DNA from: Escherichia phage vB_EcoM_CRJP21
Direction: 5' to 3' (one strand)
DNA length: 64,000 bases
Sequence record: OQ708376.1
In this document: positions 1 to 12,489 of the stretch, piece by piece
Layout of the letters: each line of letters opens with the position of its first letter
Position numbering within the stretch: the stretch's first letter is position 1
Notes under the pieces: model-generated
Databases searched by the model: none
What the model was told of the DNA's origin: nothing
Seen by the model: only the letters and a program-made list of their open reading frames with translations
Position numbers and translations under genes: made by a program

Positions 1-577
1 AGTAGGCAGAGGAAGTCTGCCGTACTTTGTAGTTTCCAAGCTCCTTTTCCATTTTTCAAATTACATCAAATGTAATCAAAAGTAATCACGCAATGATTAG
101 TACTGAATTATTACTTTCACCTTAATTACAATTACCCTTTTACCCTTCGGGGTAAAATTCAATTACCCCTTGAGGCTCCAGCAAAAAGTTGGTTAGTACT
201 CCATCCTAAATCTCGATCCTAAAAATTTTGGAGTACCTATGAAATAAAAGTTGGATCTTCGAAAGTTGAAATTTACGTTGGGACGTTTATGATTTGTGGG
301 ATATAATGATGTTTGTAGACGGGTAGTTCTCAAGAATATCAGTACTGAAAGATGAAAGAAAGTTATTGACTTTATGATTCAGTACTGTATAATGTTCTAC
401 ATAGGGTGATGAGTTGCTGCGAACAATTCATTTACTCTACCTCCTGTCGTGAGACAGTACAGAAAAGATAGTTCCTCCTGTGGTGGTACATCTTTTTGAA
501 CCTCATATGAAAATCGTAATAACAGTACTGATATTAACAGAATGGTGTCAGTACTGATTTTAATCTAAAGCATTATG

Positions 578-597
578 CCACCAGCACAAGCTGGTGG
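578..597. repeat. inverted pair of Chi-like octamers CCACCAGC-acaa-GCTGGTGG (8-bp stem hairpin)
   Basis: direct read of sequence. Confidence 0.6.
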
Positions 598-721
598 ATT
601 CCCTCTAACAGTATTCAGTACTACATGATGGTCTTCATCCTCCTAGGGTAACATAGTGAGGGCTATGATGGCAGTACTGAATACTCCCTTTCAAAAGATA
701 GATCTATGGTATAGTACTGAC

Positions 722-762
722 GGATTTTGGGCGTAGTTACCCTGGATGGATTTTGGGCGTAG
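722..762. repeat. 2x direct repeat GGATTTTGGGCGTAG
   Basis: two identical 15-mers separated by 11 bp. Confidence 0.6.
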
Positions 763-789
763 ATATGTCTAGCCCTCCAGAAGTCTGGA

Positions 790-910
790 AGTAAAGATGG
801 CTATCCATCTAGACGGCTAAACGGCTAGATTTCTGGATGGCTGGATGGCTAGACGTTTGGACGGCTAAACGGCTAGATGGTTACACGTCTGGAAGTATAG
901 ACGGCTAAAT
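790..910. repeat. iteron-like cluster (GACGGCTAAACGGCTAGAT x2, GGATGGCT x3, TCTGGAAGTA x2)
   Basis: short direct repeats in non-coding DNA. Confidence 0.6.
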
Positions 911-1080
911 CAAAATTTTATTTTGTTTTTTCCAATAGTTCCCCTACCGCGTGGGGATAGTTTCCCCGCAGTATCTGGTGTTAGATTTTTCTGAATCTGG
1001 AATCATTATCTTATAAACTGGGGGCAATGTCAACGGCCTGGCCGGATATTTTTAAAAATTTTTTCAGTACTGAATTTTGG

Positions 1081-1145
1081 GCGTAACTATGCACCCGGTG
1101 GGCTTGAGTCTTTCTCGACTTGATGGAACTATTATACAGTACTGG
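1081..1145. repeat. R1 element copy 1 (GCACCCGGTGGG...CTTGATG...CAGTACTGG)
   Basis: about 60-bp element recurring at 3246 and 4778. Confidence 0.5.
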
Positions 1146-1536
1146 AAAAATAAAGCAATACCCTGGAAGCAAAAAAGTTTTAATTAATTTGCTTGCTATC
1201 CTGGGCCGGACTATGGTACTATATTTCAGTACTGAGAAAGTGCGTTTACCTGCTAGGGTGCGGGAGTGTATCCTTTTTTTATATCTTGAATTTTGGACGG
1301 ATCTTCCCACCCCCTGGGGTATCCGCTTTCTCGCGTCTATGTAGTAATTATACGCTTTTTCAGGATCAAGTCAATACCTAAAAACAAAATAATTGAAAAT
1401 AATTTAACGCGTTTAAACGGCCTGTAAAGCCCTGGAATGATTGGAATGGTGCAAATGTATAGCTTATGTGTATTAATGCGTTAGAATGCGTCTGAGGACG
1501 TTTTACGGGGTATAGGGATGATTTAGTGGATTGATT

Positions 1537-1624
1537 CAGTACTGAATAATAGTACTCCTATATAGAAAGATAGTTCCCCTGGATGATTGCAGTACTGAAT
1601 AATAGTACTCCTATATAGAAAGAA
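1537..1624. repeat. tandem direct repeat of a 34-bp unit (CAGTACTGAATAATAGTACTCCTATATAGAAAGA)
   Basis: two copies spaced about 54 bp. Confidence 0.6.
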
Positions 1625-1654
1625 AACTATTTTAAAAGTATTTGTAGAAAGTAC

Positions 1655-1682
1655 TTGCACCGTACTGATAAAAGCGTATAAT
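1655..1682 (+). promoter_or_regulatory. sigma70-like promoter (TTGCAC, 16 bp, TATAAT)
   Basis: consensus-like -35/-10 upstream of first gene. Confidence 0.6.
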
Positions 1683-1696
1683 GTTTTACATCGAGA

Positions 1697-1713
1697 GCGG
1701 GAACACTTCCCGC
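1697..1713 (+). promoter_or_regulatory. palindromic leader hairpin/operator GCGGGAA-cac-TTCCCGC
   Basis: first of about 20 similar GGGGAA-nnn-TTCCCC palindromes placed just after promoters. Confidence 0.55.
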
Positions 1714-1737
1714 TACACATTAAGAGAGATTAAAACG

Positions 1738-2100
1738 ATGGCGACTCAAATCAATAAAATCATGCTTAACCTGGTAAACTTCCGCGATGAGATGAAAGGT
1801 CTTCCGGCTGAAACTGTAAAAATTCACATTGCAGCTTATCGGGAACTTATTGCAATGTTGCCGCTTAAGCGTGAACAATACGCCGCTACTTTGATGCTGG
1901 ATTCAATGATCCATATAATGATCTCAAATGATTTGACGATGGTTTATCAGTATATGGGCGAAAATTTCGCGGTGTGTAGTAAGCCAGTACCAGGGATGGC
2001 AACAACTGAGGAATTGCACGGCTTAAACTTAAAACAAGATGCATGGGATAATATGCCTCGTTTCCTGGTATGGGCTGACAGTGGCAAAATTTACAAATAA
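1738..2100 (+). CDS. hypothetical protein (120 aa)
   Basis: track ORF restarted at internal ATG downstream of promoter and hairpin. Confidence 0.6.
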   Translation: MATQINKIMLNLVNFRDEMKGLPAETVKIHIAAYRELIAMLPLKREQYAATLMLDSMIHIMISNDLTMVYQYMGENFAVCSKPVPGMATTEELHGLNLKQDAWDNMPRFLVWADSGKIYK

Positions 2101-2114
2101 GTTTAATAAAGTAC

Positions 2115-2142
2115 TTGCAAACTATGTTTAATGGCGTATAAT
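2115..2142 (+). promoter_or_regulatory. sigma70-like promoter (TTGCAA, 16 bp, TATAAT)
   Basis: AAAGTACTTGCAA...GCGTATAAT consensus of this region. Confidence 0.65.
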
Positions 2143-2193
2143 GTTTTACATCAGGTGGGGAATAGTTCCCCACTATATAAGAGGATTAAAAAA

Positions 2194-2433
2194 ATGGCTA
2201 AATCAAAAATGTTCTTAGGTCACAAAAACAAAACTCATTGGAATGTAAGCCTTTGGATTAATAACGATGAGGGATTGTATCGGTTGGCCCAGGACTTTAT
2301 TAACGATAGCACTAATCGCAATGATGCGGCCCGTCATATGATGTTATTTTTAGAACAGACTGGACAAGATAAAACACCGGACGGATTCAAATATAGCACT
2401 ACTGCGATCCGTGCGGCGATGGTTGGAATGTAA
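2194..2433 (+). CDS. hypothetical protein (79 aa)
   Basis: internal ATG after promoter, hairpin 2156-2173 and RBS. Confidence 0.6.
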   Translation: MAKSKMFLGHKNKTHWNVSLWINNDEGLYRLAQDFINDSTNRNDAARHMMLFLEQTGQDKTPDGFKYSTTAIRAAMVGM

Positions 2434-2519
2434 TAGAATTTATTTAAAGTACTATCATTTTTTTGCGATAGTACTTTATAATAGTGTTTTATTCATACAC
2501 CAACGATAAGGGCAACAGC

Positions 2520-2786
2520 ATGAAAATTAAGTATTTTGCGACGCGTGAACAAGCTCGGATCGCCGCACGCCAGGACGGGGCAACGTTTAAAGATATGGGC
2601 GTACAATCGGAACGTGGTAAACGTTGGGCCATTGTAAAGCGTAGTACCGCCAGATCATTACAGTACTGGTTAGCGGCCTTAAAAAGTCCCGATAGTGTAT
2701 CGCGTCGAGTGGTAGAAATAAAGCTCGACCGAAAGGGCAACCGCGTGACCGTGTACCGTACTAAAAAGATTGCAGTACTTGAATAA
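2520..2786 (+). CDS. hypothetical protein (88 aa), paralog of 14497..14892
   Basis: shared KYFATREQARIAAR and DRKGNRVTVY motifs; RBS TAAGGG. Confidence 0.6.
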   Translation: MKIKYFATREQARIAARQDGATFKDMGVQSERGKRWAIVKRSTARSLQYWLAALKSPDSVSRRVVEIKLDRKGNRVTVYRTKKIAVLE

Positions 2787-2793
2787 AAAGTAC

Positions 2794-2821
2794 TTGCAAA
2801 CTATGTTTAATGGCGTATAAT
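2794..2821 (+). promoter_or_regulatory. sigma70-like promoter (TTGCAA, 16 bp, TATAAT)
   Basis: near-identical to promoter at 2115. Confidence 0.65.
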
Positions 2822-2873
2822 GTTTTACATCGAGAGCGGGAACTCTTCCCGCCTATAACCTGGAGTAATGAAA

Positions 2874-3104
2874 ATGACTAATATGTATATGACTGAAGTT
2901 AAAACCGTAAAAGATACTACCACGAATAAAACTACTTACTTACAGCGGATCTGTGGTGTATGGCAACGTATCAGCAAATCAAAGTACTTTAAATTAACAT
3001 CATATGCAAACCGTTCGGATTCATTCAGTACTGAAATAAAAGGTAATAAAGTACACCAATACGGCACTTATTATTATTATAGCCTGGACGCGATTGCAGT
3101 ATAA
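2874..3104 (+). CDS. hypothetical protein (76 aa)
   Basis: ATG 8 nt after GGAG; hairpin 2836-2852. Confidence 0.55.
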   Translation: MTNMYMTEVKTVKDTTTNKTTYLQRICGVWQRISKSKYFKLTSYANRSDSFSTEIKGNKVHQYGTYYYYSLDAIAV

Positions 3105-3186
3105 GCAGTTTACAAATCTTTACAATTGCCGGTATTGACTTATTTTGTCAGTACTGGCATAATGTATTCATTGGCAGATAAGCCGT

Positions 3187-3214
3187 AGCCCATAGGGTGC
3201 GGGAGTGTATCTAT
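3187..3214. repeat. R2 motif copy (AGCCCATAGGGTGCGGGAGTGTATCTAT)
   Basis: about 28-bp motif recurring at about 9172, 13194, 16469, 18721. Confidence 0.55.
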
Positions 3215-3245
3215 AGAAAAATTAGTTTAGTATAGTTACAATTGT

Positions 3246-3303
3246 GCACCCGGTGGGTTAGCTGTTGTCATGGGGTATATTATACCAGTACTTGATAATG
3301 CTG
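3246..3303. repeat. R1 element copy 2
   Basis: matches 1081..1145 and 4778..4833. Confidence 0.5.
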
Positions 3304-3354
3304 TCAATACTTTTTTTTTACTATTCAGTACTGAAAACTATTTTTAAAAAGTAC

Positions 3355-3382
3355 TTGCAAACTATGTTTAAAGGCGTATAAT
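3355..3382 (+). promoter_or_regulatory. sigma70-like promoter (TTGCAA-TATAAT), upstream member of tandem pair
   Basis: consensus boxes. Confidence 0.6.
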
Positions 3383-3389
3383 GTTTTAC

Positions 3390-3465
3390 ATCAGGACGGG
3401 GAACGAAATAAGTAACTTCCCGTTAAGTAGCCCAGGAGTAAGGCACACGAAAAACTCCCCTGATA
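3390..3465 (+). ncRNA. candidate structured leader / small RNA (copy 1)
   Basis: about 75-nt element with two imperfect hairpins between tandem promoters; second copy at 13300..13375. Confidence 0.35.
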
Positions 3466-3472
3466 AAATAGT

Positions 3473-3500
3473 TTGACAAATGTTTTTAAAAGCGTATAAT
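3473..3500 (+). promoter_or_regulatory. sigma70-like promoter (TTGACA, 16 bp, TATAAT)
   Basis: consensus boxes, proximal to gene 3533. Confidence 0.6.
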
Positions 3501-3532
3501 ACTTACATCAACTACTGAATGAGGGTTACAAA

Positions 3533-4144
3533 ATGAAAACTATCACTACTACTACTTATGTTATGGCTTTTTCTGAATTGAACGCAGAACAACAAACGTC
3601 AGCTATCGAACTGGTTCGGGAACGTGAAAAAAACTCAAACGACAATTATTTTTCTGAAAGTGAAATTGAATACTATAAAGAAACAGTACTACCGGAATAT
3701 GGCATTAATGACGCTGAAATACAATTCAGTGGTTTTTGGTCCCAGGGTGACGGTGCATCAATCAGTACTGACCACGTTGACGCAGTGAAGTTTTTACGCA
3801 AGGTAAGAGCATTAACTAAGTATCGCTCAATCCGTCACTTGCTGAATGAAGATGATTTGGCGATGAGTGTAAAACGTTCGCACTCCCACTACTCGCATGA
3901 GAATACTGTAAGCGGGTACATTGAATCGGCTTACACTGATTTAACCGCAAAACAAGAAACGTTAGTTAATGAGCTTGAGGAACTACTCACTGAAACTATT
4001 CGTGAATTGTCCCGCAAGTTGTACCGTGATTTAGAGAATGCATATGAGGATCAATTCACTACTGAAAACATTACGGCACTGATTGAGGGTAACGAATATC
4101 AATTCAATGTTATTGATGGCGTAGTAGAATCAATCGAATATTAA
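3533..4144 (+). CDS. hypothetical protein (203 aa)
   Basis: track ORF; RBS GAGGG 7 nt upstream. Confidence 0.7.
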   Translation: MKTITTTTYVMAFSELNAEQQTSAIELVREREKNSNDNYFSESEIEYYKETVLPEYGINDAEIQFSGFWSQGDGASISTDHVDAVKFLRKVRALTKYRSIRHLLNEDDLAMSVKRSHSHYSHENTVSGYIESAYTDLTAKQETLVNELEELLTETIRELSRKLYRDLENAYEDQFTTENITALIEGNEYQFNVIDGVVESIEY

Positions 4145-4156
4145 TTTAAAAAGTAC

Positions 4157-4184
4157 TTGCAAACTAAGTTTAAAAGCGTATAAT
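4157..4184 (+). promoter_or_regulatory. sigma70-like promoter (TTGCAA, 16 bp, TATAAT)
   Basis: consensus boxes. Confidence 0.6.
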
Positions 4185-4236
4185 ACTTTATATCGAGAGC
4201 GGGAATAGTTCCCGCTACTAATGAGGAATACTACAA

Positions 4237-4401
4237 ATGAATACTTTTACCTTCGCTCAATTGAACGCCCTGGATGTATTGTCTGATGCTTTGCGGGATG
4301 CAACTGAAAGCGGTTTATTTGACAATGTTGACATTCACCCTGATGTAATTAATAATTTTTGTGATGCTATCGCAGAAGTACTGGAAGATCTAAAAAAATA
4401 A
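4237..4401 (+). CDS. hypothetical small protein (54 aa, not in ORF track)
   Basis: hand translation MNTFTFAQLNALDV...; promoter + hairpin + RBS upstream. Confidence 0.55.
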   Translation: MNTFTFAQLNALDVLSDALRDATESGLFDNVDIHPDVINNFCDAIAEVLEDLKK

Positions 4402-4411
4402 TAGAAAGTAC

Positions 4412-4439
4412 TTGCAATTAGTTTTCAGTACTGTATAAT
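4412..4439 (+). promoter_or_regulatory. sigma70-like promoter with extended -10 (TTGCAA ... TGTATAAT)
   Basis: consensus boxes. Confidence 0.65.
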
Positions 4440-4489
4440 GGTTTACATCAAAGGGAGAAATGGTTCTCCCTGGTAATGAGGAAAATACA

Positions 4490-4711
4490 ATGGCTAATAT
4501 CACTACTCTTTCCCAACTGGAAGCACTGGTTAAATCTATGCGGGAACATGCTGACAAAATCGGCGTACAAGATCCAGCCGTTTGCTTCTGCGACGAATTG
4601 AATGATGATACCCTGGTAATAGCAGAAGTCCAGGACGTTTCTAACTATTCCTCGCGTTACACTGGCGGCGTAGCAAATAAAGGTGACTTCTGTTTATACC
4701 TTACAAAATAA
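4490..4711 (+). CDS. hypothetical protein (73 aa)
   Basis: internal ATG after leader hairpin 4453-4470; track start lies inside the hairpin. Confidence 0.6.
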   Translation: MANITTLSQLEALVKSMREHADKIGVQDPAVCFCDELNDDTLVIAEVQDVSNYSSRYTGGVANKGDFCLYLTK

Positions 4712-4712
4712 C

Positions 4713-4748
4713 AACGCGGGGAGATAATAACTCCCCGTTACTTTTTCA
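4713..4748 (+). terminator. rho-independent terminator (GC stem + T-run)
   Basis: CGGGGAG-ataataa-CTCCCCG then CTTTTT. Confidence 0.6.
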
Positions 4749-4777
4749 GTACTGAATCATTTAATAGACGGATCTCG

Positions 4778-4833
4778 GCACCCGGTGGGTTAGTGACTGT
4801 TTCGTCTTGATGTAGTAATTATGCCAGTACTGG
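4778..4833. repeat. R1 element copy 3
   Basis: GCACCCGGTGGGTTAG...CTTGATGTAGTAATTATGCCAGTACTGG. Confidence 0.5.
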
Positions 4834-4954
4834 ATGCACTTGTCAACAATTATTTTCCAAATACTTTTTATTAAAATACTTGCAATTAGTTTTTAAACGC
4901 GTATAATGTTTTGCATAGGGGGAGCGGTTCCCCTGGTAACTAAGGAATAATAAA

Positions 4955-5191
4955 ATGCTTGAACAAATCAAATCAACGTCTTCGAATGTAACGGGAACGG
5001 TAGCACACTTTACTAGTGATGAATCGCGGGGCGTTCCCTATTGTGCTGTACATGTAAACACTGAGGGTAACTACTGGTTTACGGTTTACGGATCATATTC
5101 ATTTGGACGGCCTGGACATCAAAAAATTCTGGATAAAGTACAACCAACGGGTAAAAATATCACTGCCGAAATGTTTTATAAAAAATCATAA
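4955..5191 (+). CDS. hypothetical protein (78 aa)
   Basis: track ORF; promoter + GGGGAGCGGTTCCCC hairpin + RBS. Confidence 0.65.
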   Translation: MLEQIKSTSSNVTGTVAHFTSDESRGVPYCAVHVNTEGNYWFTVYGSYSFGRPGHQKILDKVQPTGKNITAEMFYKKS

Positions 5192-5275
5192 AGTACTTGC
5201 AATTAGTTTTTAGTACTGTATAATATTTTACATCGCAAGGGGAAACGGTTTCCCCTGGTAACTAAGGATAATCAA

Positions 5276-5575
5276 ATGAAAATTGCAATCATCGCCCTGG
5301 CTTTATCTGTTTCCTCTTTCGCTGTTAATGCGTCATTAGATGTAAGTAGTGAAAAATTCATTCAGTGCACTGTTGCAATGACCGATGAAAGAACTGGCGA
5401 GATTGTATTAAAGGATTTAGAGATCCAGCCGGAAGCATTTAAAAACGGCCCGTTCCATGAAGAAGACGAAAACGGTAGCACGACAATTTATTATGATGCC
5501 AGTACTAAACGCGGTTCGGTCACTGTAATGGATACCGAGAAAGTAACTCATACCGGCGTTATTAATTGCCGTTGA
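5276..5575 (+). CDS. small secreted/periplasmic protein (Sec-type signal peptide)
   Basis: N-terminus MKIAIIALALSVSSFAVNA with AxA-like cleavage site. Confidence 0.6.
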   Translation: MKIAIIALALSVSSFAVNASLDVSSEKFIQCTVAMTDERTGEIVLKDLEIQPEAFKNGPFHEEDENGSTTIYYDASTKRGSVTVMDTEKVTHTGVINCR

Positions 5576-5596
5576 TAGATACTACGGGGTAACATC

Positions 5597-5827
5597 ATGA
5601 CTAAGCGAATTGTTTTACTTAACGAAAGCAGTACTACACAACTACTTAACGCCGTGCATTATGATATTGAAACGAGCGTTAATCTTATCAGTACTGTAGT
5701 TCTGTTGGACACTGGAAAGGTAGCCAATGATAAAGCGATTGCAGGTATACTAACGGATCTTGTGCCTGGTAGCAGTGCACCAATAACGTTAAATGGTAAA
5801 GTGTTTAATATTTTACTCACTGATTAA
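5597..5827 (+). CDS. hypothetical protein (76 aa)
   Basis: track ORF followed by terminator. Confidence 0.55.
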   Translation: MTKRIVLLNESSTTQLLNAVHYDIETSVNLISTVVLLDTGKVANDKAIAGILTDLVPGSSAPITLNGKVFNILLTD

Positions 5828-5833
5828 GTACAT

Positions 5834-5857
5834 AGCCCACCTGGTGGGCTTTTTTGT
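5834..5857 (+). terminator. rho-independent terminator
   Basis: AGCCCAC-ctg-GTGGGCT + TTTTTTG. Confidence 0.7.
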
Positions 5858-6060
5858 TTTTGTAGTATCGTAGTACTGAGATACTTTGAAAATAGTTTTA
5901 AAAAAGTAGTTGACATTACCACAGAAAAGCGTAGAATGTATTACATCAAGACGGGGAGCACTAAGTAGACCGCCAGTAAGTCGAACGAAAAACTGGACAC
6001 GTCGAGAAAACTTTGATACACTAATAAACGTAAACTAAACTTTAATTGAGGATTTATAAA

Positions 6061-6543
6061 ATGGCTAATGTAAAATCATTCATCAAAGCACTGGTAGCAA
6101 ATGAAACTAACGTCGCGGCTGAGATCCTGGCTGAACTGGATAACGATACCATGAAAGCGGTACGCAACAATTTTAACATTGCGTACAGTGAAGCTAAAGA
6201 ACTGCAAGCCAAAAAGGTAGCAGAACTGGAAGAACAGAAAAAAGCCCGTGAAGCAGAACTACAAGCAACAATTGAAAGTATTCAGGCGGCAGTGTCTGGA
6301 TTGGATCTGGAAGTGGTTGTAGAAATGGCACATAAAGCCCTGGCGGTTAAGTACGGTGAAGATAAGCCGGAATCTAAACCTAAAAAATGGATTCAAGAAC
6401 GTGTTACTGTAGTACTTGATAACGGTGAAGAACATTTGATTCCTGTACGCGGTAACTGCATTGCGGTAGTACTGGACGCTATCAAAGAAAGCGGTATGAC
6501 TCGCGAGGAATGGATCGAAGCTCATCGCAAAGTTGAAGCATAA
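6061..6543 (+). CDS. hypothetical protein (160 aa)
   Basis: ATG 8 nt after GAGGA; promoter TTGACA/TAGAAT at about 5908-5936. Confidence 0.65.
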   Translation: MANVKSFIKALVANETNVAAEILAELDNDTMKAVRNNFNIAYSEAKELQAKKVAELEEQKKAREAELQATIESIQAAVSGLDLEVVVEMAHKALAVKYGEDKPESKPKKWIQERVTVVLDNGEEHLIPVRGNCIAVVLDAIKESGMTREEWIEAHRKVEA

Positions 6544-6564
6544 CAATTAAAGTACTGAATCACT

Positions 6565-6592
6565 AGCCCACCTTAAACAGTGGGCTTTTTTG
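6565..6592 (+). terminator. rho-independent terminator
   Basis: AGCCCAC-loop-GTGGGCT + TTTTTT. Confidence 0.7.
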
Positions 6593-6610
6593 TGTCTGTA
6601 GTATTCCAGT

Positions 6611-6680
6611 CCACCAGCACCGCCTAGAATCGATTCTAACGCATTAAACTGATTATCTGATACATCGCCCTAGCTGGTGG
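6611..6680. repeat. inverted Chi-like octamer pair (CCACCAGC ... GCTGGTGG) flanking inverted R4 motif
   Basis: direct read. Confidence 0.55.
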
Positions 6681-6828
6681 CGTTAAGGTCGTTAGAATGC
6701 GATTGAGAGCGTTTAAAGTATTTTGCAAAAAGTAATAAAAAGTACTTGCACGATTAAGAGATTAGCGTATAATGTTTTACATCGAGAGGGGGAAACGGTT
6801 CTCCTTCCAAATCAAAGGAATCAAAACA

Positions 6829-7056
6829 ATGGCTATTATCATTACTCGCGTATCTGGTACTACTGGCAACGAACAAGTAGTTGCAGTCATTACTAACAAG
6901 GCAGGTGCGGAATTGCAAAATGCAATGAATACCTGGGCCGTTAATGAGTTCGGTCAGTGGGCAAGTGTAGCATACATTGAAACCTATCAAGTGCCGTCGA
7001 TTAGTTTAACTGATTTGGGCGTTGAGCGTATCCTTTGCCTGGATGAATTAAATTAA
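6829..7056 (+). CDS. hypothetical protein (75 aa), MAII-start paralog group
   Basis: internal ATG after promoter and hairpin; N-terminus resembles 7143 and 10054 genes. Confidence 0.6.
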   Translation: MAIIITRVSGTTGNEQVVAVITNKAGAELQNAMNTWAVNEFGQWASVAYIETYQVPSISLTDLGVERILCLDELN

Positions 7057-7142
7057 AAAAAGTACTTGCAAAGTAAATCGAATAAAGTATAATACATTAC
7101 ATCAAGGGGAGAAATGATTCTCCCCACTACAAGGAAACTAAA

Positions 7143-7355
7143 ATGGCTATCATTACTAAAATCAAAGTTAACAAGACTATCGTTAAACTGGCAGAAGTGA
7201 AAGAAGGTTATAAAGTATCTTGGTGCGGTATGTATCGGACGTTCGCAGATATAGATGATGCGATCAATTATTACAGTGACACGGTTAAAAACTTTGTTCG
7301 TGCTGATGTGGTTATGGCAGTGGCAACATATAAAGCAGCGAAAGAAAGTAAGTAA
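7143..7355 (+). CDS. hypothetical protein (70 aa), MAII-start paralog group
   Basis: track ORF; promoter + GGGGAGAAATGATTCTCCCC hairpin. Confidence 0.65.
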   Translation: MAIITKIKVNKTIVKLAEVKEGYKVSWCGMYRTFADIDDAINYYSDTVKNFVRADVVMAVATYKAAKESK

Positions 7356-7374
7356 AAATATTATCACAGTACTA

Positions 7375-7403
7375 TTGACATAGTTTGATAGTACTGGCAT
7401 AAT
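7375..7403 (+). promoter_or_regulatory. class-II promoter (AGTACT-flanked TTGACA, 17 bp, CATAAT), no leader hairpin
   Basis: same architecture at about 9990, 10258, 18047. Confidence 0.6.
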
Positions 7404-7446
7404 AGATTTTATCAAGACGACACATATTAATTTAAGGAATACTAAA

Positions 7447-7770
7447 ATGGCTAAAACTATCATCAACACCGTTTCCCTGGCTGCAATCCATGCAATCAAT
7501 GTTGACGGTAAACGTTGGACTGATTCATATGGCAATACTTATCATTCTTGTCATGTAAGCGTTGAACTGGATAACGGCTTGAATGATCTGGCGGTTGAAT
7601 CATTTACTTATGGCTATGAGGATGCATATCAACAAACGGCGGTATCACTCTTAAAGGAATCAGTAGACGGGCTTGATACTGTTGAAACCTCCCTCTATCG
7701 TTTGTGCAATGATCTTAATATCCCGTTGCATTGTACTGTACAGGATGTAAAACGTAAAAAAGATCTTTAA
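7447..7770 (+). CDS. hypothetical protein (107 aa), paralog of 14078..14401
   Basis: shared RWTD..GNTYHSC..ETFTYGY..DVKRKKD motifs. Confidence 0.65.
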   Translation: MAKTIINTVSLAAIHAINVDGKRWTDSYGNTYHSCHVSVELDNGLNDLAVESFTYGYEDAYQQTAVSLLKESVDGLDTVETSLYRLCNDLNIPLHCTVQDVKRKKDL

Positions 7771-7850
7771 TTAGCTTTACTTTATGCAGATACTTTGATA
7801 TAGTGTCTGCATAGGGGAAAGAAATTAAATCAACTTAAGAGGAAAGTAAA

Positions 7851-8120
7851 ATGAAAAATATCAGTACTTTAATCGATGCAGGTACACATGTTCGTCGGTC
7901 TATGGTTGCAACCAGTTCTACAAAACAAGTAGCGAGCGGTTATCTTGTATTTGTGCACGATGGAAAACTCCTGGAACGTTCAATCAATTTTGATGTTAAA
8001 AACAATTGCCGTTTTATTATCTTTCGCCGTGAACAATATAAAATTGATTTGCCAGCGAAGCCCATTAGCGGGGCGTACAACGTGCAATCATTGTTTGAGC
8101 GTCAACCTTACACCTATTAA
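7851..8120 (+). CDS. hypothetical protein (89 aa)
   Basis: track ORF; RBS AAGAGGAAAG. Confidence 0.55.
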   Translation: MKNISTLIDAGTHVRRSMVATSSTKQVASGYLVFVHDGKLLERSINFDVKNNCRFIIFRREQYKIDLPAKPISGAYNVQSLFERQPYTY

Positions 8121-8171
8121 TCAAAACATCGTTAGCGGTCGATTTAGGCCGCTTATATTGGGGATTATACC

Positions 8172-8444
8172 ATGAACGTTAATCAAGTACTGAATGAGAT
8201 CGAAAGCATCATTAAACCGATGAAGCGTACTGATGCTATGTTAACACCGGAAGAATGCCGCCTTTATGAGCGTTACAGCGTCGAACAAGTCCAGGCAATG
8301 GCTATGGCTACCCCAGCCGTTTCACCGCCTGAGAATGCGTTACAGGACGTTACAGGGGATTATATCATTAATCCAGTACTAGGGAAGATGACTGCAATCA
8401 CCGAAGATCAAAAAGACTACTTAAGCCAGTACTTAAAAGGTTAA
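8172..8444 (+). CDS. hypothetical protein (90 aa)
   Basis: track ORF. Confidence 0.5.
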   Translation: MNVNQVLNEIESIIKPMKRTDAMLTPEECRLYERYSVEQVQAMAMATPAVSPPENALQDVTGDYIINPVLGKMTAITEDQKDYLSQYLKG

Positions 8445-8449
8445 TTAAT

Positions 8450-8659
8450 ATGCTTACTGTACAGGATAAGATCGACATCTTAAAGGTTAATATGTATGTG
8501 ATTGATGCCGTACCTGGTAAAGTATTTGCATACGATGATAGTACTGTAAGCGATTTCTACTATAGCCAGGACGTGGGGGATCTTTCTGTACAGTCGGTTA
8601 TTGAAAACGTAGTTAATGCAGCGTATGAGCATTTACTTTCAAATAGTACTTGCAATTAG
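8450..8659 (+). CDS. hypothetical protein (69 aa)
   Basis: track ORF; next promoter overlaps its 3' end. Confidence 0.5.
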   Translation: MLTVQDKIDILKVNMYVIDAVPGKVFAYDDSTVSDFYYSQDVGDLSVQSVIENVVNAAYEHLLSNSTCN

Positions 8660-8727
8660 TTTTTAAACGCGTATAATGTTTTACATGAAGGGGAGAAATG
8701 ATTCTCCCCAATAACAGGAGAAACAAA

Positions 8728-8880
8728 ATGAAACAATACAACGCTCGGTTTGATGTTACTATCGGTAACGGCAAAGGTCAATTCTCTTTCAGTACTCGCC
8801 GCAGTTATACAGAAAACTTCCTGCGTAATTGTGCACTGACCGCCGCTCAAATTAAACACTATTTTCAGGCTAAAAAATGA
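8728..8880 (+). CDS. hypothetical protein (50 aa)
   Basis: ATG 7 nt after CAGGAG; promoter + hairpin upstream. Confidence 0.55.
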   Translation: MKQYNARFDVTIGNGKGQFSFSTRRSYTENFLRNCALTAAQIKHYFQAKK

Positions 8881-8966
8881 AATCATTAGCTTATTACAGT
8901 TCGGCCCTGGTCGGTGCATTGATCGCGGCATTGTTAGTAACCTATCTATTCTTTATGGTGATTTAA
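8877..8966 (+). CDS. small hydrophobic peptide (29 aa, single predicted TM helix)
   Basis: ATGA overlap with upstream stop; MKSLAYYSSALVGALIAALLVTYLFFMVI. Confidence 0.4.
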   Translation: MKSLAYYSSALVGALIAALLVTYLFFMVI

Positions 8967-9110
8967 ATGAATCCAACAGGTTTAAACTATAAAAGTTGTT
9001 CTGCATTTACGAAAGCAAATAAAGCGAATGCACGTAAAGCGAAAGTACAGGAATACATCAAGCAAGGCATGACGCGAAAAGCGGCGATTATAAAAGCTAA
9101 AAATAAATGA
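8967..9110 (+). CDS. small basic protein (47 aa)
   Basis: TAAATG coupling; K/R-rich. Confidence 0.4.
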   Translation: MNPTGLNYKSCSAFTKANKANARKAKVQEYIKQGMTRKAAIIKAKNK

Positions 9111-9202
9111 AAAAAGTGGTTGACTTCGGTCAGCCATTTTGTTATTATATATTCATTGAGAGATAGCTCACTAGCCCACAGGGTGCAGGAGTGTATCTAT
9201 TG
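9111..9202 (+). repeat. intergenic cassette copy A: hairpin-embedded promoter (R3) + R2 28-mer
   Basis: TTGACT-17-TATTAT inside inverted repeat, then AGCCCACAGGGTGCAGGAGTGTATCTAT. Confidence 0.55.
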
Positions 9203-9320
9203 TATGAGTATTGAGTACTGAAAACTATTTTTAAAAAGTACTTGCAAACTATCTCAATAAGCGTATAATGTTTTACATCGAAAGGGGAAACGGTTTCCCC
9301 TGGTAATAAGGAAACAAATC

Positions 9321-9662
9321 ATGACTATCTCAATTGCTCAATCTAACTTTGAAAATGAAATCATCGCCCAGGCACTGCGTTTAAATGATGGTCGGGCCGA
9401 AATTAATTACGGTTTCAATTCAGGCGGTTGCGAAAAATATCAGTACTTTGTAACGGCTGATGGCGGTGTCCTGGGTATCAATACAGTTATTGTAAACATC
9501 CAAAAAATTAATTTCAATGATCCAGACGATAGCCAGTTTTACATCACTGGCGTAGACGTGAACTATGAGGATGACTCACTAACTGATGATCACACTGGCG
9601 AGCGGTTAGAAAGTGCATACGGTGAAGATGATTATCAGTCCGGTCCAGAAGATTTCGAATAA
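9321..9662 (+). CDS. hypothetical protein (113 aa)
   Basis: track ORF; promoter 9242-9269 + GGGGAAACGGTTTCCCC hairpin. Confidence 0.65.
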   Translation: MTISIAQSNFENEIIAQALRLNDGRAEINYGFNSGGCEKYQYFVTADGGVLGINTVIVNIQKINFNDPDDSQFYITGVDVNYEDDSLTDDHTGERLESAYGEDDYQSGPEDFE

Positions 9663-9758
9663 TATAAAAAAATAGTTTGACAATAGATTATAGTACTGTA
9701 TAATAGTTTACATCAAGGGGAGAAAAACTTCTCCCCACTAACAGAGAGAGAAAACAAA

Positions 9759-9971
9759 ATGGCTAATATCCGGTCGAAATTAAAAAATGCAAAACAAGTT
9801 TTATTTTCAGATCATGAATACTTTAATAAAGATATTACAGGAGTTACAAGTATCAAGGAAGTAAAAGAAAAAACCGGCGTTTTGTGTGATGTGCGATTAG
9901 TTGGAACATTTGGGAATAACGTGCTATATCGCTGCGGTGATTACAATTTTACACTGACTATCATTAACTAA
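9759..9971 (+). CDS. hypothetical protein (70 aa)
   Basis: track ORF; promoter TTGACA...TGTATAAT + hairpin. Confidence 0.6.
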   Translation: MANIRSKLKNAKQVLFSDHEYFNKDITGVTSIKEVKEKTGVLCDVRLVGTFGNNVLYRCGDYNFTLTIIN

Positions 9972-10053
9972 AAATATTATCACAGTACTATTGACATAGT
10001 TTGATAGTACTGACATAATAACTTTTATCAACTACACTATTAAGGAATTAAAA

Positions 10054-10233
10054 ATGGCTATCATCGCAAAAACTGAAATCGTTGGTCTGGATTCTATCAT
10101 CATGACGTTTGAAGATCAAAAAGGTATGTATGTAGTTTCATATGGTGATTATGTTCGGGAGTATGAAACGGTAGACGAAGCCTTTGAAAGTTACATTCGC
10201 CAGGTGAATAAAGCATACGACGATTACCGCTAA
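10054..10233 (+). CDS. hypothetical protein (59 aa, not in track), MAII-start paralog group
   Basis: hand translation MAIIAKTEIVGLDS...; class-II promoter upstream; replaces track minus ORF 10100..10300. Confidence 0.55.
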   Translation: MAIIAKTEIVGLDSIIMTFEDQKGMYVVSYGDYVREYETVDEAFESYIRQVNKAYDDYR

Positions 10234-10332
10234 AATATATTACCAGTACTATTAAAGATATTGACAACGTTTGATAGTACTGTATAATAAGTTTTATCAA
10301 CAGTAGTTAACTTAACCTAAGAGAGAAATAAA

Positions 10333-10476
10333 ATGATCGCACTGGATTCATTCATCGACGCAGTACTGGCAAAAACTGGCGAGGATCTGACCGCAGAACA
10401 ATACGCAATGATCGAGCAATGCCAGCAAGACGGTAAATCGGTGAAAGATACTGTTAAGATTATCCGCAAGATGTAA
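10333..10476 (+). CDS. hypothetical small protein (47 aa, not in track)
   Basis: class-II promoter + RBS AAGAGAGAAA; terminator follows. Confidence 0.5.
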   Translation: MIALDSFIDAVLAKTGEDLTAEQYAMIEQCQQDGKSVKDTVKIIRKM

Positions 10477-10482
10477 GATTAT

Positions 10483-10512
10483 AGCCCACTGGTTAACGCT
10501 GGTGGGCTTTAA
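10483..10512 (+). terminator. candidate terminator hairpin (contains Chi octamer GCTGGTGG at 10498-10505)
   Basis: AGCCCAC-loop-GTGGGCT, weak T-run. Confidence 0.4.
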
Positions 10513-10581
10513 TTCATTACCCTATACAATGCCAGTACTAAACCGTTTATCTCGTTAGAATGCGTTACAGGACGTTTAACA

Positions 10582-10779
10582 ATGATTAGCATGAAATCAG
10601 TACAAAAACAAATAGAAACATTATCAAAAATTAAACGTAAACAGTACTCCTTAGAATATACAATCAATGGTAACTATCATCTAATGAAAGAGAATAATTT
10701 TATAGTCATTGATGAATCATTGCAAATCATTAGTATAGTACTGAAAGCATTAATCAATGACAGAAAAAAATTAAAATAA
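10582..10779 (+). CDS. hypothetical protein (65 aa; alt start 10591)
   Basis: track ORF preceded by R4 motif. Confidence 0.45.
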   Translation: MISMKSVQKQIETLSKIKRKQYSLEYTINGNYHLMKENNFIVIDESLQIISIVLKALINDRKKLK

Positions 10780-10874
10780 ACTATTGACAATATCATCAAG
10801 TACTGGCATAATACTTACATCAAGACGAGAACGTCACTAACCCATAGGGTGCACAAATGTAACTGTATAATATT

Positions 10875-10905
10875 GATCAAAAAATGATCTGATCAATACT
10901 TGATC
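10875..10905. promoter_or_regulatory. cluster of four GATC sites (three TGATCA palindromes) in 31 bp
   Basis: direct read; intergenic. Confidence 0.5.
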
Positions 10906-11110
10906 AATTTGCGTAAAGTAGTATAATTCTATGCAGTTGGTTAGACGAAAGGTTATGATTAGTAGTGCAAGTGTATAAAAATTTTCATGGTGTATCGTTT
11001 CGCACATATGGGGATGAATATGTGGTATCATGTGGATTGGAAAAAGTAAGAACAAGTAATATTATTGTCGCATTACAGTACTATAGTATTTTTATAATGA
11101 GGTTAAAATA

Positions 11111-11368
11111 ATGGCTGTAGGATTCGCGAAAGATGGGGCCGAACAAGACGAGATTAACGCAGTGATTCAGGCCGCCGTTAACCACGCTAGAAAGCAAATT
11201 AACGCACAAATAGAATCACTGATACATTGCCTCGACTGCGGCGATATAATCCCTGAGAATCGACGCCAGGCCGTTAAGGGATGTAAGTACTGCATAACTT
11301 GCCAGGAGGATCATGATAGTACTTTTAAACGTCCCCCGCGTAATTGTTGGCATAGATCTATGAGATAA
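11111..11368 (+). CDS. TraR/DksA-family C4 zinc-finger protein
   Basis: CLDCGDIIPENRRQAVKGCKYCITC matches CxxCG-x3-IP-x2-RR-...-C-x2-C signature. Confidence 0.65.
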   Translation: MAVGFAKDGAEQDEINAVIQAAVNHARKQINAQIESLIHCLDCGDIIPENRRQAVKGCKYCITCQEDHDSTFKRPPRNCWHRSMR

Positions 11369-11431
11369 AAAGTATTGACAGTACTGAAAGATAGTGTATA
11401 ATGTTTTATATCTTAACTGAGGATAGAAATC

Positions 11432-11788
11432 ATGGGAATACAACATATCACGCGTACTACTGACAATGGCGAGATCACTGGTTATCAAGTACAGGGCAAA
11501 GTAGCACAATTGCAGTACTGGTTTGTTAAACGTGGAATCATTGCACCGGATCTTGATTATGACCGTGTAGCGTTTATTGATTCTCTTTATGTTGATCCTG
11601 ATAGTCGGGGCAATGGTGAAGGTAACGAATTAATGAATGCCTTTATTGATGCCGCCGATGATTCAGATTGTATCATTTTAGAATGCGATACGGGAGAAGA
11701 TAACGCCTTTAATCTTAAAGAATGGTACGAAGGTTTCGGATTCGAGGTACTGATCGATAGTGAATATCCTATCATGATTTTATCATAG
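11432..11788 (+). CDS. putative GNAT-like acetyltransferase (small)
   Basis: RGNGEGNELMNAFIDAA resembles GNAT motif A; assignment tentative. Confidence 0.4.
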   Translation: MGIQHITRTTDNGEITGYQVQGKVAQLQYWFVKRGIIAPDLDYDRVAFIDSLYVDPDSRGNGEGNELMNAFIDAADDSDCIILECDTGEDNAFNLKEWYEGFGFEVLIDSEYPIMILS

Positions 11789-11866
11789 TACTTGCATTTA
11801 GTTTTCAGTAGTGTTATAGTACTTACATCAAGGGGAAACATCTTCCCCTACTAAGAGGAAATGAAA

Positions 11867-12055
11867 ATGGAAAACTTATCAAGTATTTTAGTACAAGATG
11901 ATTTCGGTAATCCTGGAAGTGCTATCATTGTTCGGGGTAATAAAGCAACATTTGTTATTGCTGGTGGACCTGTACAGCGTAGCATTAAAAACAATGCCGT
12001 TACTATTAATAATGTACGCTATCGCTTAGATAAAGAATTGATTCATAAACTGTAA
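11867..12055 (+). CDS. hypothetical protein (62 aa)
   Basis: second ATG, 7 nt after AAGAGGA. Confidence 0.55.
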   Translation: MENLSSILVQDDFGNPGSAIIVRGNKATFVIAGGPVQRSIKNNAVTINNVRYRLDKELIHKL

Positions 12056-12082
12056 TATTAATTTAATAGAGGATAACAATAA

Positions 12083-12406
12083 ATGTACATTCATACTACT
12101 ATCACAAAGGAAGTCCGTTGCCAGTTCGAAAGTATTCCGGGCGTATGTTTCATCACTGGTACGTTTTCCCCTGGTGATCGTGATAATCCAGTACTGTTAC
12201 AATTACGCCATCCATCATGGGATAAAGCATTTGATCTACCGTTGAATGAATTCGCAACTACTGCTGAAAAGTACATTAAAAATATTCGCGAGAATGATCG
12301 ACTATTCATTAATGCTTTTAGTGATTCCGCGTTAAGCGAGATCCACGGTGTATTGGTTGCAATCATGGAATCAATGGAGAAAACTAAATTCAAACAAGGT
12401 GAATAA
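12083..12406 (+). CDS. hypothetical protein (107 aa)
   Basis: track ORF; RBS AGAGGA. Confidence 0.6.
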   Translation: MYIHTTITKEVRCQFESIPGVCFITGTFSPGDRDNPVLLQLRHPSWDKAFDLPLNEFATTAEKYIKNIRENDRLFINAFSDSALSEIHGVLVAIMESMEKTKFKQGE

Positions 12407-12412
12407 AAACTA

Positions 12413-12440: not shown

Positions 12441-12489
12441 AAGTTACATGAAGGGGAGAAATGATTCTCCCCACTGAGAGGAAAGAAAA

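What the first reader, a model, noticed from the sequence alone, without database searches (positions are those of the whole stretch)
1461..10585. Recurrent motif CGTTAGAATGCG...GACGTTTAA (four copies, one inverted)
Copies are at about 1461-1500, 6686-6720 and 10551-10585 (+) and inverted at about 6630-6650. The last + copy lies directly upstream of ORF 10582. It contains a TAGAAT -10-like hexamer but no matching -35, so it may be a factor-dependent promoter or a binding site.
Basis: seen in the sequence. Interest (0 to 1): 0.35.

Follow-up and report, generated by a model that had tools for sequence, protein, structure and literature searches.

The report
Conserved non-coding motif of mobile DNA
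The repeated sequence is real, and it is not private to this phage: the same ~36-base non-coding element occurs in many unrelated enterobacterial phages and in more than a thousand IncX-type plasmids, and it looks more like a DNA-level signal near replication origins and early regions than like a promoter.

Summary
CGTTAGAATGCG occurs three times exactly (1479, 6690, 10553, + strand; 0 expected). A full inverted copy with a 1-nt deletion lies at 6641-6614. Two degenerate copies lie at 8130 and 8328. All six are in the first 11 kb of an Asteriusvirus (121Q-like jumbo coliphage), inside its ~21-kb direct terminal repeat.

The same element has the consensus TAAAaCcCS-TTAGAATGCG-WTWB-AGR-n-CGTTTtA. 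It recurs in non-coding DNA of:
- T5-like phages (three copies in the first-step-transfer repeat regions, next to LexA and DnaA boxes);
- T1-like, rV5-like, Kuravirus and RaK2 phages;
- an E. coli prophage;
- about 1,400 IncX-type (Rep_3) plasmids, just beyond the origin iterons.

No neighbouring gene is shared between these families. There was no Rfam match, and no paper containing the sequence was found.

A promoter reading is weak. No family has a -35 or a TG element. The -10-like hexamer is broken in many homologous copies (TAGAAA, TAGAAC, CAGAAA, TGTGAT). Orientation is opposite to the genes in T1-like phages and RaK2.

The element is an imperfect inverted repeat, TTAGAAYGC-N8-GCGTTTTAR. 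My best guess, held at moderate to low confidence, is a DNA-level cis-acting site for establishing or replicating incoming DNA: a priming-type hairpin or a protein-binding site. The function remains untested.

The parts
1479..1508 (+). Copy 1: CGTTAGAATGCGTCTGAGGACGTTTTACGG. It lies about 170 nt upstream of the first early sigma70 promoter (TTGCAC 1655-1660, TATAAT 1677-1682).
   Evidence: Conserved in vB_Ec-M-J, E9.1 and 121Q, varying only at the N4 positions and position 20.
6614..6641 (-). Inverted copy with a 1-nt deletion: CGTTAGAAT-CGATTCTAGGCGGTGCTGG. Its box-1 start is 49 nt from that of copy 2. Together they form a divergent inverted pair, just after the terminator at 6565-6592.
   Evidence: The 131-nt segment 6595-6725 folds as a long hairpin as single-stranded DNA (z = -2.56). 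An IncX plasmid has the same inverted-pair layout with a 55-nt spacer.
6690..6719 (+). Copy 2: CGTTAGAATGCGATTGAGAGCGTTTAAAGT. It lies 27 nt upstream of the -35 of an early promoter (TTGCAC 6746-6751, TATAAT 6768-6773).
   Evidence: Box 1 has decayed in phage E9.1 (TGTAAGAACGCG). It is present in 121Q (L379).
8130..8159 (+). Degenerate copy: CGTTAGCGGTCGATTTAGGCCGCTTATATT. It is intergenic, upstream of ORF 8172. Its 3' half closely matches the T5 copy at 6289 (AGGCCGCTTAT(T/A)TTGGG).
8328..8357 (+). Copy embedded in the variable C-terminal part of ORF 8172-8444: CCTGAGAATGCGTTACAGGACGTTACAGGG. It shares a 19-nt identity with copy 3.
   Evidence: From about window 8303 onward, 121Q has a shorter, unrelated 3' end of the gene.
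10553..10581 (+). Copy 3: CGTTAGAATGCGTTACAGGACGTTTAACA. It ends directly before the ATG of ORF 10582 and follows the hairpin at 10483-10512.
   Evidence: It is 95-100% identical over 40 nt in about 35 Asteriusvirus records.
10582..10779 (+). ORF of 65 aa immediately downstream of copy 3. It has no Pfam family. It is annotated as a hypothetical protein in related phages.
6565..6592 (+). Intrinsic terminator-like hairpin (AGCCCAC...GTGGGCT followed by a T-run) preceding the inverted pair.
   Evidence: A terminator 45-55 nt upstream of the motif is also seen in T5 (copy at 9350), Kuravirus SGF2 and rV5-like phages.
10483..10512 (+). Hairpin (AGCCCAC...GTGGGCT with a short T-run) that contains a Chi site, about 40 nt upstream of copy 3.

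Best explanation
The copies belong to a widespread family of ~36-40-bp conserved non-coding elements carried by mobile DNA of Enterobacterales, which the searches made here found undescribed. These include phage early and terminal-repeat regions, a prophage, and the origin-proximal region of Rep_3/IncX plasmids.

Shown here:
- The element has the consensus TAAAaCcCS-TTAGAATGCG-WTWB-AGR-n-CGTTTtA-nn-G.
- It is an imperfect inverted repeat, TTAGAAYGC-(8 nt)-GCGTTTTAR.
- Its orientation is independent of the neighbouring genes.
- It sometimes occurs as a divergent inverted pair about 50 nt apart.

Inferred: it acts in cis at the DNA level, through machinery common to all these hosts, during establishment or replication of incoming DNA. 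The most likely form is a strand-specific hairpin that serves as a priming or single-strand-initiation-type signal, comparable in logic to plasmid ssi signals. The alternative is a docking site for a host DNA-binding protein, like the DnaA and LexA boxes that sit beside it in T5. In this phage the six copies lie in the terminal repeat, which is present at both genome ends and is packed with early sigma70 promoters. They would therefore serve the early-expressed terminal-repeat DNA rather than drive individual genes.
For: - The family is real and goes beyond the window. There are three copies in the T5 left terminal repeat: at 5282 (+), 6289 (-) and 9350 (+) of NC_005859, the last inside the annotated injection-stop-signal region. 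Other carriers are T1-like phages, rV5-like phages, Kuravirus, RaK2-size and 122-248-kb contigs, an E. coli prophage in hicB, 1,267 of 5,426 E. coli genomes and 1,332-1,419 plasmids.
- No protein is shared between families within the sampled flanks, from under 1 kb to several kb per family (BLASTP). What is conserved is therefore the DNA itself.
- It sits near origins. In IncX1 and IncX4 plasmids, a third iteron-bearing Rep_3 plasmid (L419, untyped, matching the IncX plasmids by BLAST) and the 2-kb Rep_3 plasmid pRGI01177, it lies 0.25-0.9 kb beyond the 22-bp iterons. In all four replicons it has the same orientation relative to rep. In T5, two copies are each followed by a near-perfect LexA box and by DnaA boxes.
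- Inverted pairs occur in the window (49 nt between box-1 starts) and in an IncX-type plasmid (55-nt spacer).
- It has hairpin potential. 67% of cells pair in the proposed register, against 25-54% when the partner is slid. The core pairs are 77-90% paired. The three consensus arm mismatches not explained by A/A are all G.T on the motif strand. Single-strand folds give z = -2.2 to -2.9 for the T1-like copy, the E. coli chromosomal copy and the window's inverted pair.
- Within Asteriusviruses, substitutions fall at the same positions that vary between families (N4 and position 20), which argues for constraint on the rest.
Against: - No function has been tested anywhere. The T5 literature states that the roles of these repeat regions are unknown.
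- The hairpin has no covariation support: shuffles reach the observed values.
- The three main window copies do not fold better than shuffled sequence (z = -1.0 to +1.0).
- No origin is known in the Asteriusvirus terminal repeat, and there are no DnaA or LexA boxes near the window copies.
- Copy 3 abuts a start codon, and in four families an ATG lies 10-11 nt after the AGG, which fits an expression signal.
- I could not name a host protein or primase with this specificity. Resemblances to the DeoR, Lrp, Cra and H-NS consensus sequences rest on my memory only and are partial.
Confidence: 0.4

Rival explanations
1. It is a -35-less promoter core. TAGAAT would be the -10, GCG the discriminator, and the invariant A of AGR the start site 7 nt downstream. 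Recognition would be by host RNA polymerase with an unknown helper. In the window, copy 3 would drive ORF 10582, and copies 1 and 2 would add transcription ahead of early promoters.
For: In the principal copies of many families the hexamer varies as TAnnAT: TAGAAT, TACAAT in RaK2, TATGAT with a TG extension in a metagenomic family, TAGGAT, and TAAAAT. A purine follows 7 nt after the hexamer, with G at +2. The motif often lies 45-55 nt after a terminator. Copy 3 resembles the core of the phage's own early promoters: TAGAATGCGTTACA compared with TATAATGTTTTACA. The AGGA then sits at the 5' end of a 13-nt leader before the ATG.
Against: The best -35 match in any of the 13 families with enough upstream sequence to score is 3/6 or worse, and the only TG extension is in one metagenomic family. 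The T at -7 or the A at -11 is lost in many homologous copies: TAGAAA in most T5-like B copies, TAGAAC in IncX plasmids and an E. coli island, CAGAAA and TCTAGG in the T5-like partners, TGTGAT in Kuravirus, TAGCGG at 8130. Sequence identity extends well beyond what sigma70 reads. The motif points against the surrounding operon in T1-like phages and RaK2, and into a convergent gene in rV5-like phages. The T5 copies face untranslated DNA.
Confidence: 0.2
2. It is a short interspersed, selfish or recombination-borne repeat that spreads between mobile elements sharing a host. Comparable cases are MITE-like or REP-like elements, a homing or transposition target, or a relic of a promoter-leader cassette. 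On this reading it has little or no function for the carrier.
For: The distribution is patchy but the sequences are nearly identical across unrelated phages and plasmids. Copy number changes between close relatives: copy 2 has decayed in E9.1, and the 8328 copy lies in a gene segment that 121Q lacks. One copy lies inside an ORF. In T5 an HNH endonuclease gene lies between two inverted copies. IS3 and IS110 elements flank it in one plasmid. Copies occur as inverted pairs.
Against: The position is syntenic and conserved across T5-like genera, across Asteriusvirus and RaK2, and across IncX1 and IncX4, which implies long-term retention. No common element with terminal repeats or target duplications could be defined, and the spacers of the inverted pairs are unrelated. 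Breakpoints between Asteriusvirus genomes fall at the early-promoter cassettes, not at this motif.
Confidence: 0.15
3. It is an RNA element: a hairpin UUAGAAYGC-(GWUWBAGR)-GCGUUUUAR on the motif-sense transcript. It would act as a protein-binding or antisense-type stem-loop, or as a short leader or mini-ORF (M-R-[FLY]-R...).
For: All arm mismatches are G.U-compatible on the sense strand only. The loop often contains a YUNR-like UUNA. The variable positions 11, 14 and 17 fall at the third position of an ATG-CGW-xxx-AGR frame, and both Arg codons vary only synonymously.
Against: There is no Rfam match and no covariation. The sense strand is antisense to the local operon in T1-like phages and RaK2, with no promoter in sight. 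There is no Shine-Dalgarno sequence before the ATG. The frame is broken by a 2-nt insertion in one likely member (L199) and by a 1-nt deletion in the window's inverted copy. The downstream peptides are unrelated.
Confidence: 0.1

Closest known systems
Untranslated repeat regions of the phage T5 first-step-transfer DNA (repeat regions 1-3, including the injection stop signal; Davison, bioRxiv 10.1101/866236, and the annotation of NC_005859)
   Same: The sequence element is the same. T5 carries it at 5282 (+), 6289 (-) and 9350 (+), the last inside the annotated iss region. In both phages the copies lie in a long direct terminal repeat that carries early genes. One copy is inverted, and copies follow terminators. 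Homology between copy 3 and the T5 copy at 6289 extends to about 75 nt, including ATTACCCTATA.
   Different: In T5 the copies are flanked by LexA and DnaA boxes and by palindromes. The window has none within 22 kb. The T5 papers describe the repeats only by name, and their function is stated to be unknown. My equation of two copies with 'IRB/IRB'' is inferred from coordinates, not read from the paper.
Single-strand initiation (ssi) or priming signals of plasmids, for example the oppositely oriented ssiA/ssiB of RSF1010 and the G4-type signals of R6K and R100 (from my own knowledge; no sequences could be compared here)
   Same: Both are short, strand-specific, hairpin-forming conserved sequences. 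Both lie a few hundred bp from the origin on a defined strand. Both sometimes occur as an inverted pair on opposite strands. Both are recognised by replication machinery rather than by a neighbouring gene product.
   Different: No sequence similarity to any described ssi could be tested. The hairpin is short and weak in the window copies. Dependence on a primase or primosome is untested. A role for such a signal in double-stranded DNA phages with their own replication genes is unproven.
-35-independent promoters (extended -10 promoters; T4 middle and late promoters)
   Same: There is a -10-like hexamer without a -35. The position is after terminators and before genes. The start-site region is conserved.
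   Different: There is no TG extension. There is no MotA box or TATAAATA. The hexamer is not conserved across homologues. The element is shared by phages with unrelated transcription strategies and by plasmids.
PeSL-type mobile promoter-stem-loop cassettes of T4-type phages (from my own knowledge)
   Same: Both are repeated regulatory-looking intergenic sequences in an early region full of small genes.
   Different: The window does contain PeSL-like cassettes (sigma70 promoter, stem-loop, SD; at least 16 copies), and these mark the mosaic breakpoints. The motif studied here is a different, much rarer repeat. It is also not confined to one phage lineage.

Membership tests
sigma70 promoter | -35 hexamer (TTGACA-like) 16-18 bp upstream of the -10 | tested here: not met
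   The best match is 2/6 in the three window copies and 3/6 or worse in the 13 of 15 family representatives that had enough upstream sequence to score.
sigma70 promoter | -10 hexamer that keeps A at -11 and T at -7 across functional copies | tested here: inconclusive
   The positions are kept in window copies 1-3 and in many principal copies (TAGAAT, TACAAT, TATGAT, TAGGAT). They are lost in TAGAAA, TAGAAC, CAGAAA, TGTGAT, TCTAGG and TAGCGG copies.
sigma70 promoter | extended -10 (TGn) that can replace the -35 | tested here: not met
   The upstream triplet is CGT, or TCT in RaK2 and L334. TGT occurs in only one metagenomic family.
sigma70 promoter | a mapped transcription start | not testable with these tools
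   No transcript data exist for this phage. The T5 and Kuravirus papers read here do not map a start at the motif.
T5 first-step-transfer repeat elements | sequence homology to the T5 terminal-repeat copies | tested here: met
   PWM scores are 29-36 bits for T5 positions 5282, 6289 and 9350. The alignment with copy 3 and the 8130 copy extends beyond the core.
T5 first-step-transfer repeat elements | association with DnaA boxes, the LexA-box palindrome and the injection stop region | tested here: not met
   There is no DnaA box in window 1-22,000 and no LexA box in the 64 kb.
ssi / priming signal | stable strand-specific hairpin in single-stranded DNA | tested here: inconclusive
   z = -2.2 to -2.9 for the T1-like copy, the E. 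coli chromosomal copy and the window inverted pair. z = -1.0 to +1.0 for window copies 1-3 taken singly. 67% of cells are paired with no covariation.
ssi / priming signal | fixed position and strand relative to a replication origin | tested here: inconclusive
   This is met in four Rep_3 replicons: the motif lies beyond the iterons, with its sense strand opposite to the rep coding strand. No origin is known in the phage terminal repeat.
ssi / priming signal | primase- or primosome-dependent priming | not testable with these tools
   This needs an M13-delta-ori or in vitro priming assay.
described RNA families (Rfam 15) | covariance-model match | tested here: not met
   No match overlaps any copy in the window or in the T5, Kuravirus, rV5-like, plasmid or E. 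coli loci, even at E <= 1-5.
intrinsic terminator | G+C-rich hairpin followed by a T-run | tested here: not met
   The terminator scan lists none at the copies. The 3' arm is followed by AGG, not by T.
MITE / REP-like mobile repeat | a common unit with terminal inverted repeats and target duplications | tested here: not met
   Inverted pairs exist, but their spacers are unrelated (window vs IncX), and most copies are solitary.
leader peptide / mini-ORF | a ribosome-binding site and a preserved reading frame | tested here: not met
   There is no SD before the ATG. Indels of 1 and 2 nt occur in otherwise intact copies, and the downstream peptides are unrelated.

The most novel reading that the evidence does not exclude
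The element is a new class of universal cis-acting 'establishment' signal. Unrelated phages (T5-like, T1-like, rV5-like, Kuravirus, Asteriusvirus/RaK2) and conjugative or small Rep_3 plasmids would all have converged on it or exchanged it, because one conserved host machine reads it on newly entered or newly unwound DNA. That machine could be a primase or primosome, or an unidentified DNA-binding protein. If so, a single host factor would be a shared dependency, and a possible vulnerability, of a large part of the enterobacterial mobilome.
Probability: 0.25. Interest if true: 0.8.

Novelty: new variant of a known kind. Interest (0 to 1): 0.6.

Why it matters
A 36-nt non-coding sequence kept nearly identical in phages that share no genes, and in over a thousand resistance plasmids (including IncX4, the type in which the match was confirmed), must be read by something common to their hosts. 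It would add a component to IncX/Rep_3 origin regions. It might also reveal a shared requirement of incoming mobile DNA. For this phage, it shows that the terminal repeat contains at least one signal that is not a promoter of the standard early class.

Tried and rejected
- **Host-derived sequence.** BLAST of copy 3 against 5,426 E. coli genomes found only chance-level hits. The later consensus search hits mobile elements, not core genes.
- **tRNA fragment, CRISPR repeat, dif/Xer site, boxA, attC site.** I considered each by eye from remembered consensus sequences. Only partial resemblances appeared, and none was consistent across families.
- **Known transcription-factor sites.** I compared DeoR (TGTTAGAA), Lrp, Cra, ArgR, Fis, IHF, H-NS, CsrA, OmpR-family direct repeats and the marbox from memory. 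No consensus fitted the conserved positions. The comparisons were not tested formally.
- **T5 nick site.** The annotated nick at 9748/9749 is about 400 bp away and has a different sequence (GCGC).
- **Shared neighbouring protein.** All-against-all BLASTP of ORFs flanking the motif in 13 loci (from under 1 kb to several kb each) gave no cross-family hit.
- **Genome-collection scan.** The 120 genome-contig hits for a pattern with 15 specified bases were consistent with chance in 596 Gb and were not used.
- **Class F (three contigs, inside a metallophosphoesterase-like gene) and several singletons (L020, L037, L050, L052, L055).** I treated these as probable chance matches.
- **10-bp tandem-repeat ('iteron') reading.** It is striking in some copies (GCGTTTTAGA twice), but the TTAGA units are not in phase.
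- **Literature.** Exact-sequence searches for nine sub-strings found nothing relevant.

Full report
**What the window is.** The first 12 kb match Asteriusvirus jumbo coliphages (121Q, PBECO4, E9.1, fEgEco12, vB_Ec-M-J) at 88-98% identity. Window position 1 aligns with position 1 of fEgEco12 and E9.1. The fEgEco12 termini were verified experimentally, with 20,993-bp direct terminal repeats (PMC13070987). vB_Ec-M-J is annotated with a 21.5-kb repeat. The finding therefore lies inside the terminal repeat. This region is packed with small + strand genes, most preceded by a strong sigma70 promoter, a 5' stem-loop and an SD.

**The observation.**
- CGTTAGAATGCG occurs exactly three times, at 1479, 6690 and 10553, where 0 are expected.
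- The similarity extends to about 30 nt.
- The inverted copy at 6641-6614 is a full copy lacking one G.
- A weight matrix gives 33-38 bits for the three + copies, against 10 bits or less in shuffles.
- The matrix also finds a degenerate intergenic copy at 8130 and a copy at 8328 inside ORF 8172-8444.
- Nothing is found between 11 and 64 kb.
- In the complete 348.5-kb 121Q genome, four anchored patterns hit only the equivalents of copies 1, 2 and 3.
- The gene segment holding the 8328 copy is replaced in 121Q, and box 1 of copy 2 has decayed in E9.1.

**The element is not private to this phage.**
- A 40-nt query from copy 3 hit unrelated phages.
- Pattern scans of IMG/VR and BLAST then recovered about 40 mutually distinct versions.
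- Among phages these include T5 and its relatives, T1-like Drexlerviridae (Tls gp22/gp23 intergenic region), rV5-like phages, Kuravirus SGF2, a 345,809-bp contig of RaK2 size, and contigs of 122-248 kb.
- They also include an E. coli prophage inserted in hicB.
- With a consensus query, the element was found in 1,267 of 5,426 complete E. coli genomes and in 1,332-1,419 PLSDB plasmids, mostly conjugative; both plasmids checked were typed IncX1/IncX4.
- The background of chance hits was judged from the flanks. Real members share unconstrained positions, while environmental chance hits do not.
- From 37 representatives the consensus is TAAAaCcCS-TTAGAATGCG-WTWB-AGR-n-CGTTTtA-nn-G.
- ORFs flanking the motif in 13 loci share no homologue across families.
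- No Rfam family matches, and no paper in the library contains the sequence.

**Context in other carriers.**
- T5 (NC_005859) has copies at 5282 (+), 6289 (-) and 9350 (+). All lie in the untranslated repeat regions of the left terminal repeat, and the last lies in the annotated injection-stop-signal region.
- The 6289 and 9350 copies are each followed within 60 nt by a near-perfect LexA box (CTGTATAAATATACAG) and then by DnaA boxes.
- Davison's analysis describes these regions as highly conserved and of unknown function. The BF23 paper says experiments are lacking.
- In Kuravirus the motif follows a terminator near the right genome end and precedes the early promoters.
- In rV5-like phages it sits between convergent gene blocks, after a terminator.
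- In T1-like phages and RaK2 it lies inside an operon, pointing against the genes.
- In four Rep_3 replicons it lies beyond the 22-bp iterons, always with its sense strand opposite to the rep coding strand. The four are an IncX1 plasmid, an IncX4 plasmid, a third iteron-bearing Rep_3 plasmid (L419, not typed here) and the 2-kb plasmid pRGI01177, which has room for little beyond rep and the origin.
- The L419 plasmid carries a divergent inverted pair with a 55-nt spacer. This is the same layout as 6641/6690 in the window.

**Promoter reading.** These points favour it:
- Principal copies keep TAnnAT.
- A conserved A followed by G lies 7 nt downstream of the hexamer.
- Terminators often precede the motif.
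- Copy 3 resembles the core of the phage's own early promoters and abuts ORF 10582.

These points count against it:
- No family has a -35, and a TG extension occurs in only one metagenomic family.
- The hexamer's critical bases are lost in many homologous copies.
- The conserved block is far longer than what sigma70 reads.
- Orientation relative to genes is inconsistent.

I give this reading 0.2.

**Structure.** The element is an imperfect inverted repeat, TTAGAAYGC-N8-GCGTTTTAR. In the proposed register 67% of cells pair, against 25-54% when the partner is slid by 1-3 columns. The arm mismatches are G.T on the sense strand. Shuffles reach the same values, so there is no covariation evidence. 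Single-strand folding is convincing only for some members and for the window's inverted pair. An RNA role conflicts with the orientation data. A mini-ORF (M-R-x-R...) is suggested by third-position variation, but it lacks an SD and is broken by indels.

**Conclusion.** The best-supported statement is descriptive. This is a widespread, apparently undescribed, conserved non-coding element of enterobacterial mobile DNA. Here it is present six times in the terminal repeat. For mechanism I favour a DNA-level cis-acting site read by host machinery during establishment or replication of incoming DNA. That site would be either an ssi-like strand-specific hairpin or a protein docking site. The grounds are its origin-proximal, strand-consistent position in plasmids, its company in T5 (LexA and DnaA boxes), the inverted pairs, and its independence from neighbouring genes. 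This step is inference, and I rate it 0.4. Rivals are a -35-less promoter (0.2), a selfish or recombination-borne repeat (0.15) and an RNA element (0.1). The remaining probability is unassigned.

Noticed in passing
window 779-906: Sixteen head-to-tail 8-bp units (AGACGGCT, AAACGGCT, GGATGGCT, AGACGTTT, ACACGTCT and others). On average they match about 5.8 of 8 positions of the MetJ met-box consensus AGACGTCT (consensus from memory). Natural met operators have 2-5 boxes. The array lies in the 1.4-kb non-coding left end of the terminal repeat.
   Followed up: partly
window 578-18790: Chi sites (GCTGGTGG) are clustered in the terminal repeat: 11 of the 12 in the window lie in the first 19 kb. Nine are on the + strand, and two inverted pairs lie at 585/590 and 6618/6673. 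Three of the four main motif copies have a Chi within 60 nt. By my reasoning this orientation would attenuate RecBCD entering from the right genome end.
   Followed up: partly
window, whole 64 kb: AGTACT occurs 254 times where about 16 are expected, mostly as CAGTACTG. It is densest in the first 16 kb, where it forms part of the early promoters (AGTACTTGCAA; AGTACTGTATAAT).
   Followed up: no
window 350-13800: At least 16 copies of an early cassette: sigma70 promoter (TTGCAA or TTGACA, 16 nt, TATAAT), GTTTTACATC, a G+C-rich stem-loop, then SD and ATG. Alignment breakpoints with vB_Ec-M-J, E9.1 and 121Q fall on these cassettes, as with the PeSL elements of T4-type phages.
   Followed up: partly
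L061 (T5, NC_005859) 6213-6228 and 9411-9426: Two near-perfect LexA (SOS) boxes, CTGTATAAATATACAG, lie in the T5 first-step-transfer repeat regions, each between a motif copy and a pair of DnaA boxes. LexA is not mentioned in the sections of the T5 paper read here.
   Followed up: partly
L004 (Kuravirus SGF2) 1480-2560: A 1.6-kb stretch without annotated genes holds strong sigma70 promoters, each followed by a boxA-like sequence (GCTCTTTAAAAA or GCTCTTTAACAA; four strict copies plus one weaker). This suggests rrn-type antitermination of early transcripts. The 7-11 paper says an antitermination strategy remains to be defined. T5 also has boxA-like sequences at 4988 (-) and 6359 (+).
   Followed up: no
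window 8172-8444: The C-terminal third of this 90-aa ORF (from about 8303) is replaced by unrelated sequence and an earlier stop in 121Q. The replaced part contains a motif copy with a tandem CGTTACAGG(A/G) duplication.
   Followed up: partly
window about 20,000: G+C content drops from about 0.38 to about 0.33 near 20 kb, close to the expected inner end of the ~21-kb terminal repeat.
   Followed up: no
L422 and L424 (Lactobacillaceae plasmids), position 2501-2536 of each locus: AAAACCGCTTAGAAAGGATTTTGCAGCCTTTTAGG shares the 14-nt left part and the TTTTAGG right part of the motif. Its central stem is different but still complementary (AAAGG/CCTTT). It lies about 210 nt from a RelB/DinJ antitoxin gene. 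The E-values are borderline (0.1), so membership is uncertain.
   Followed up: partly
L419, L420, L426 (E. coli plasmids): In the enterobacterial plasmids the motif region lies 250-300 nt upstream of a type II toxin-antitoxin operon of varying family (RelE/ParE with an HTH protein, Phd/YefM-RelE, stbDE). In L420 an IS110-family element is inserted between them.
   Followed up: no
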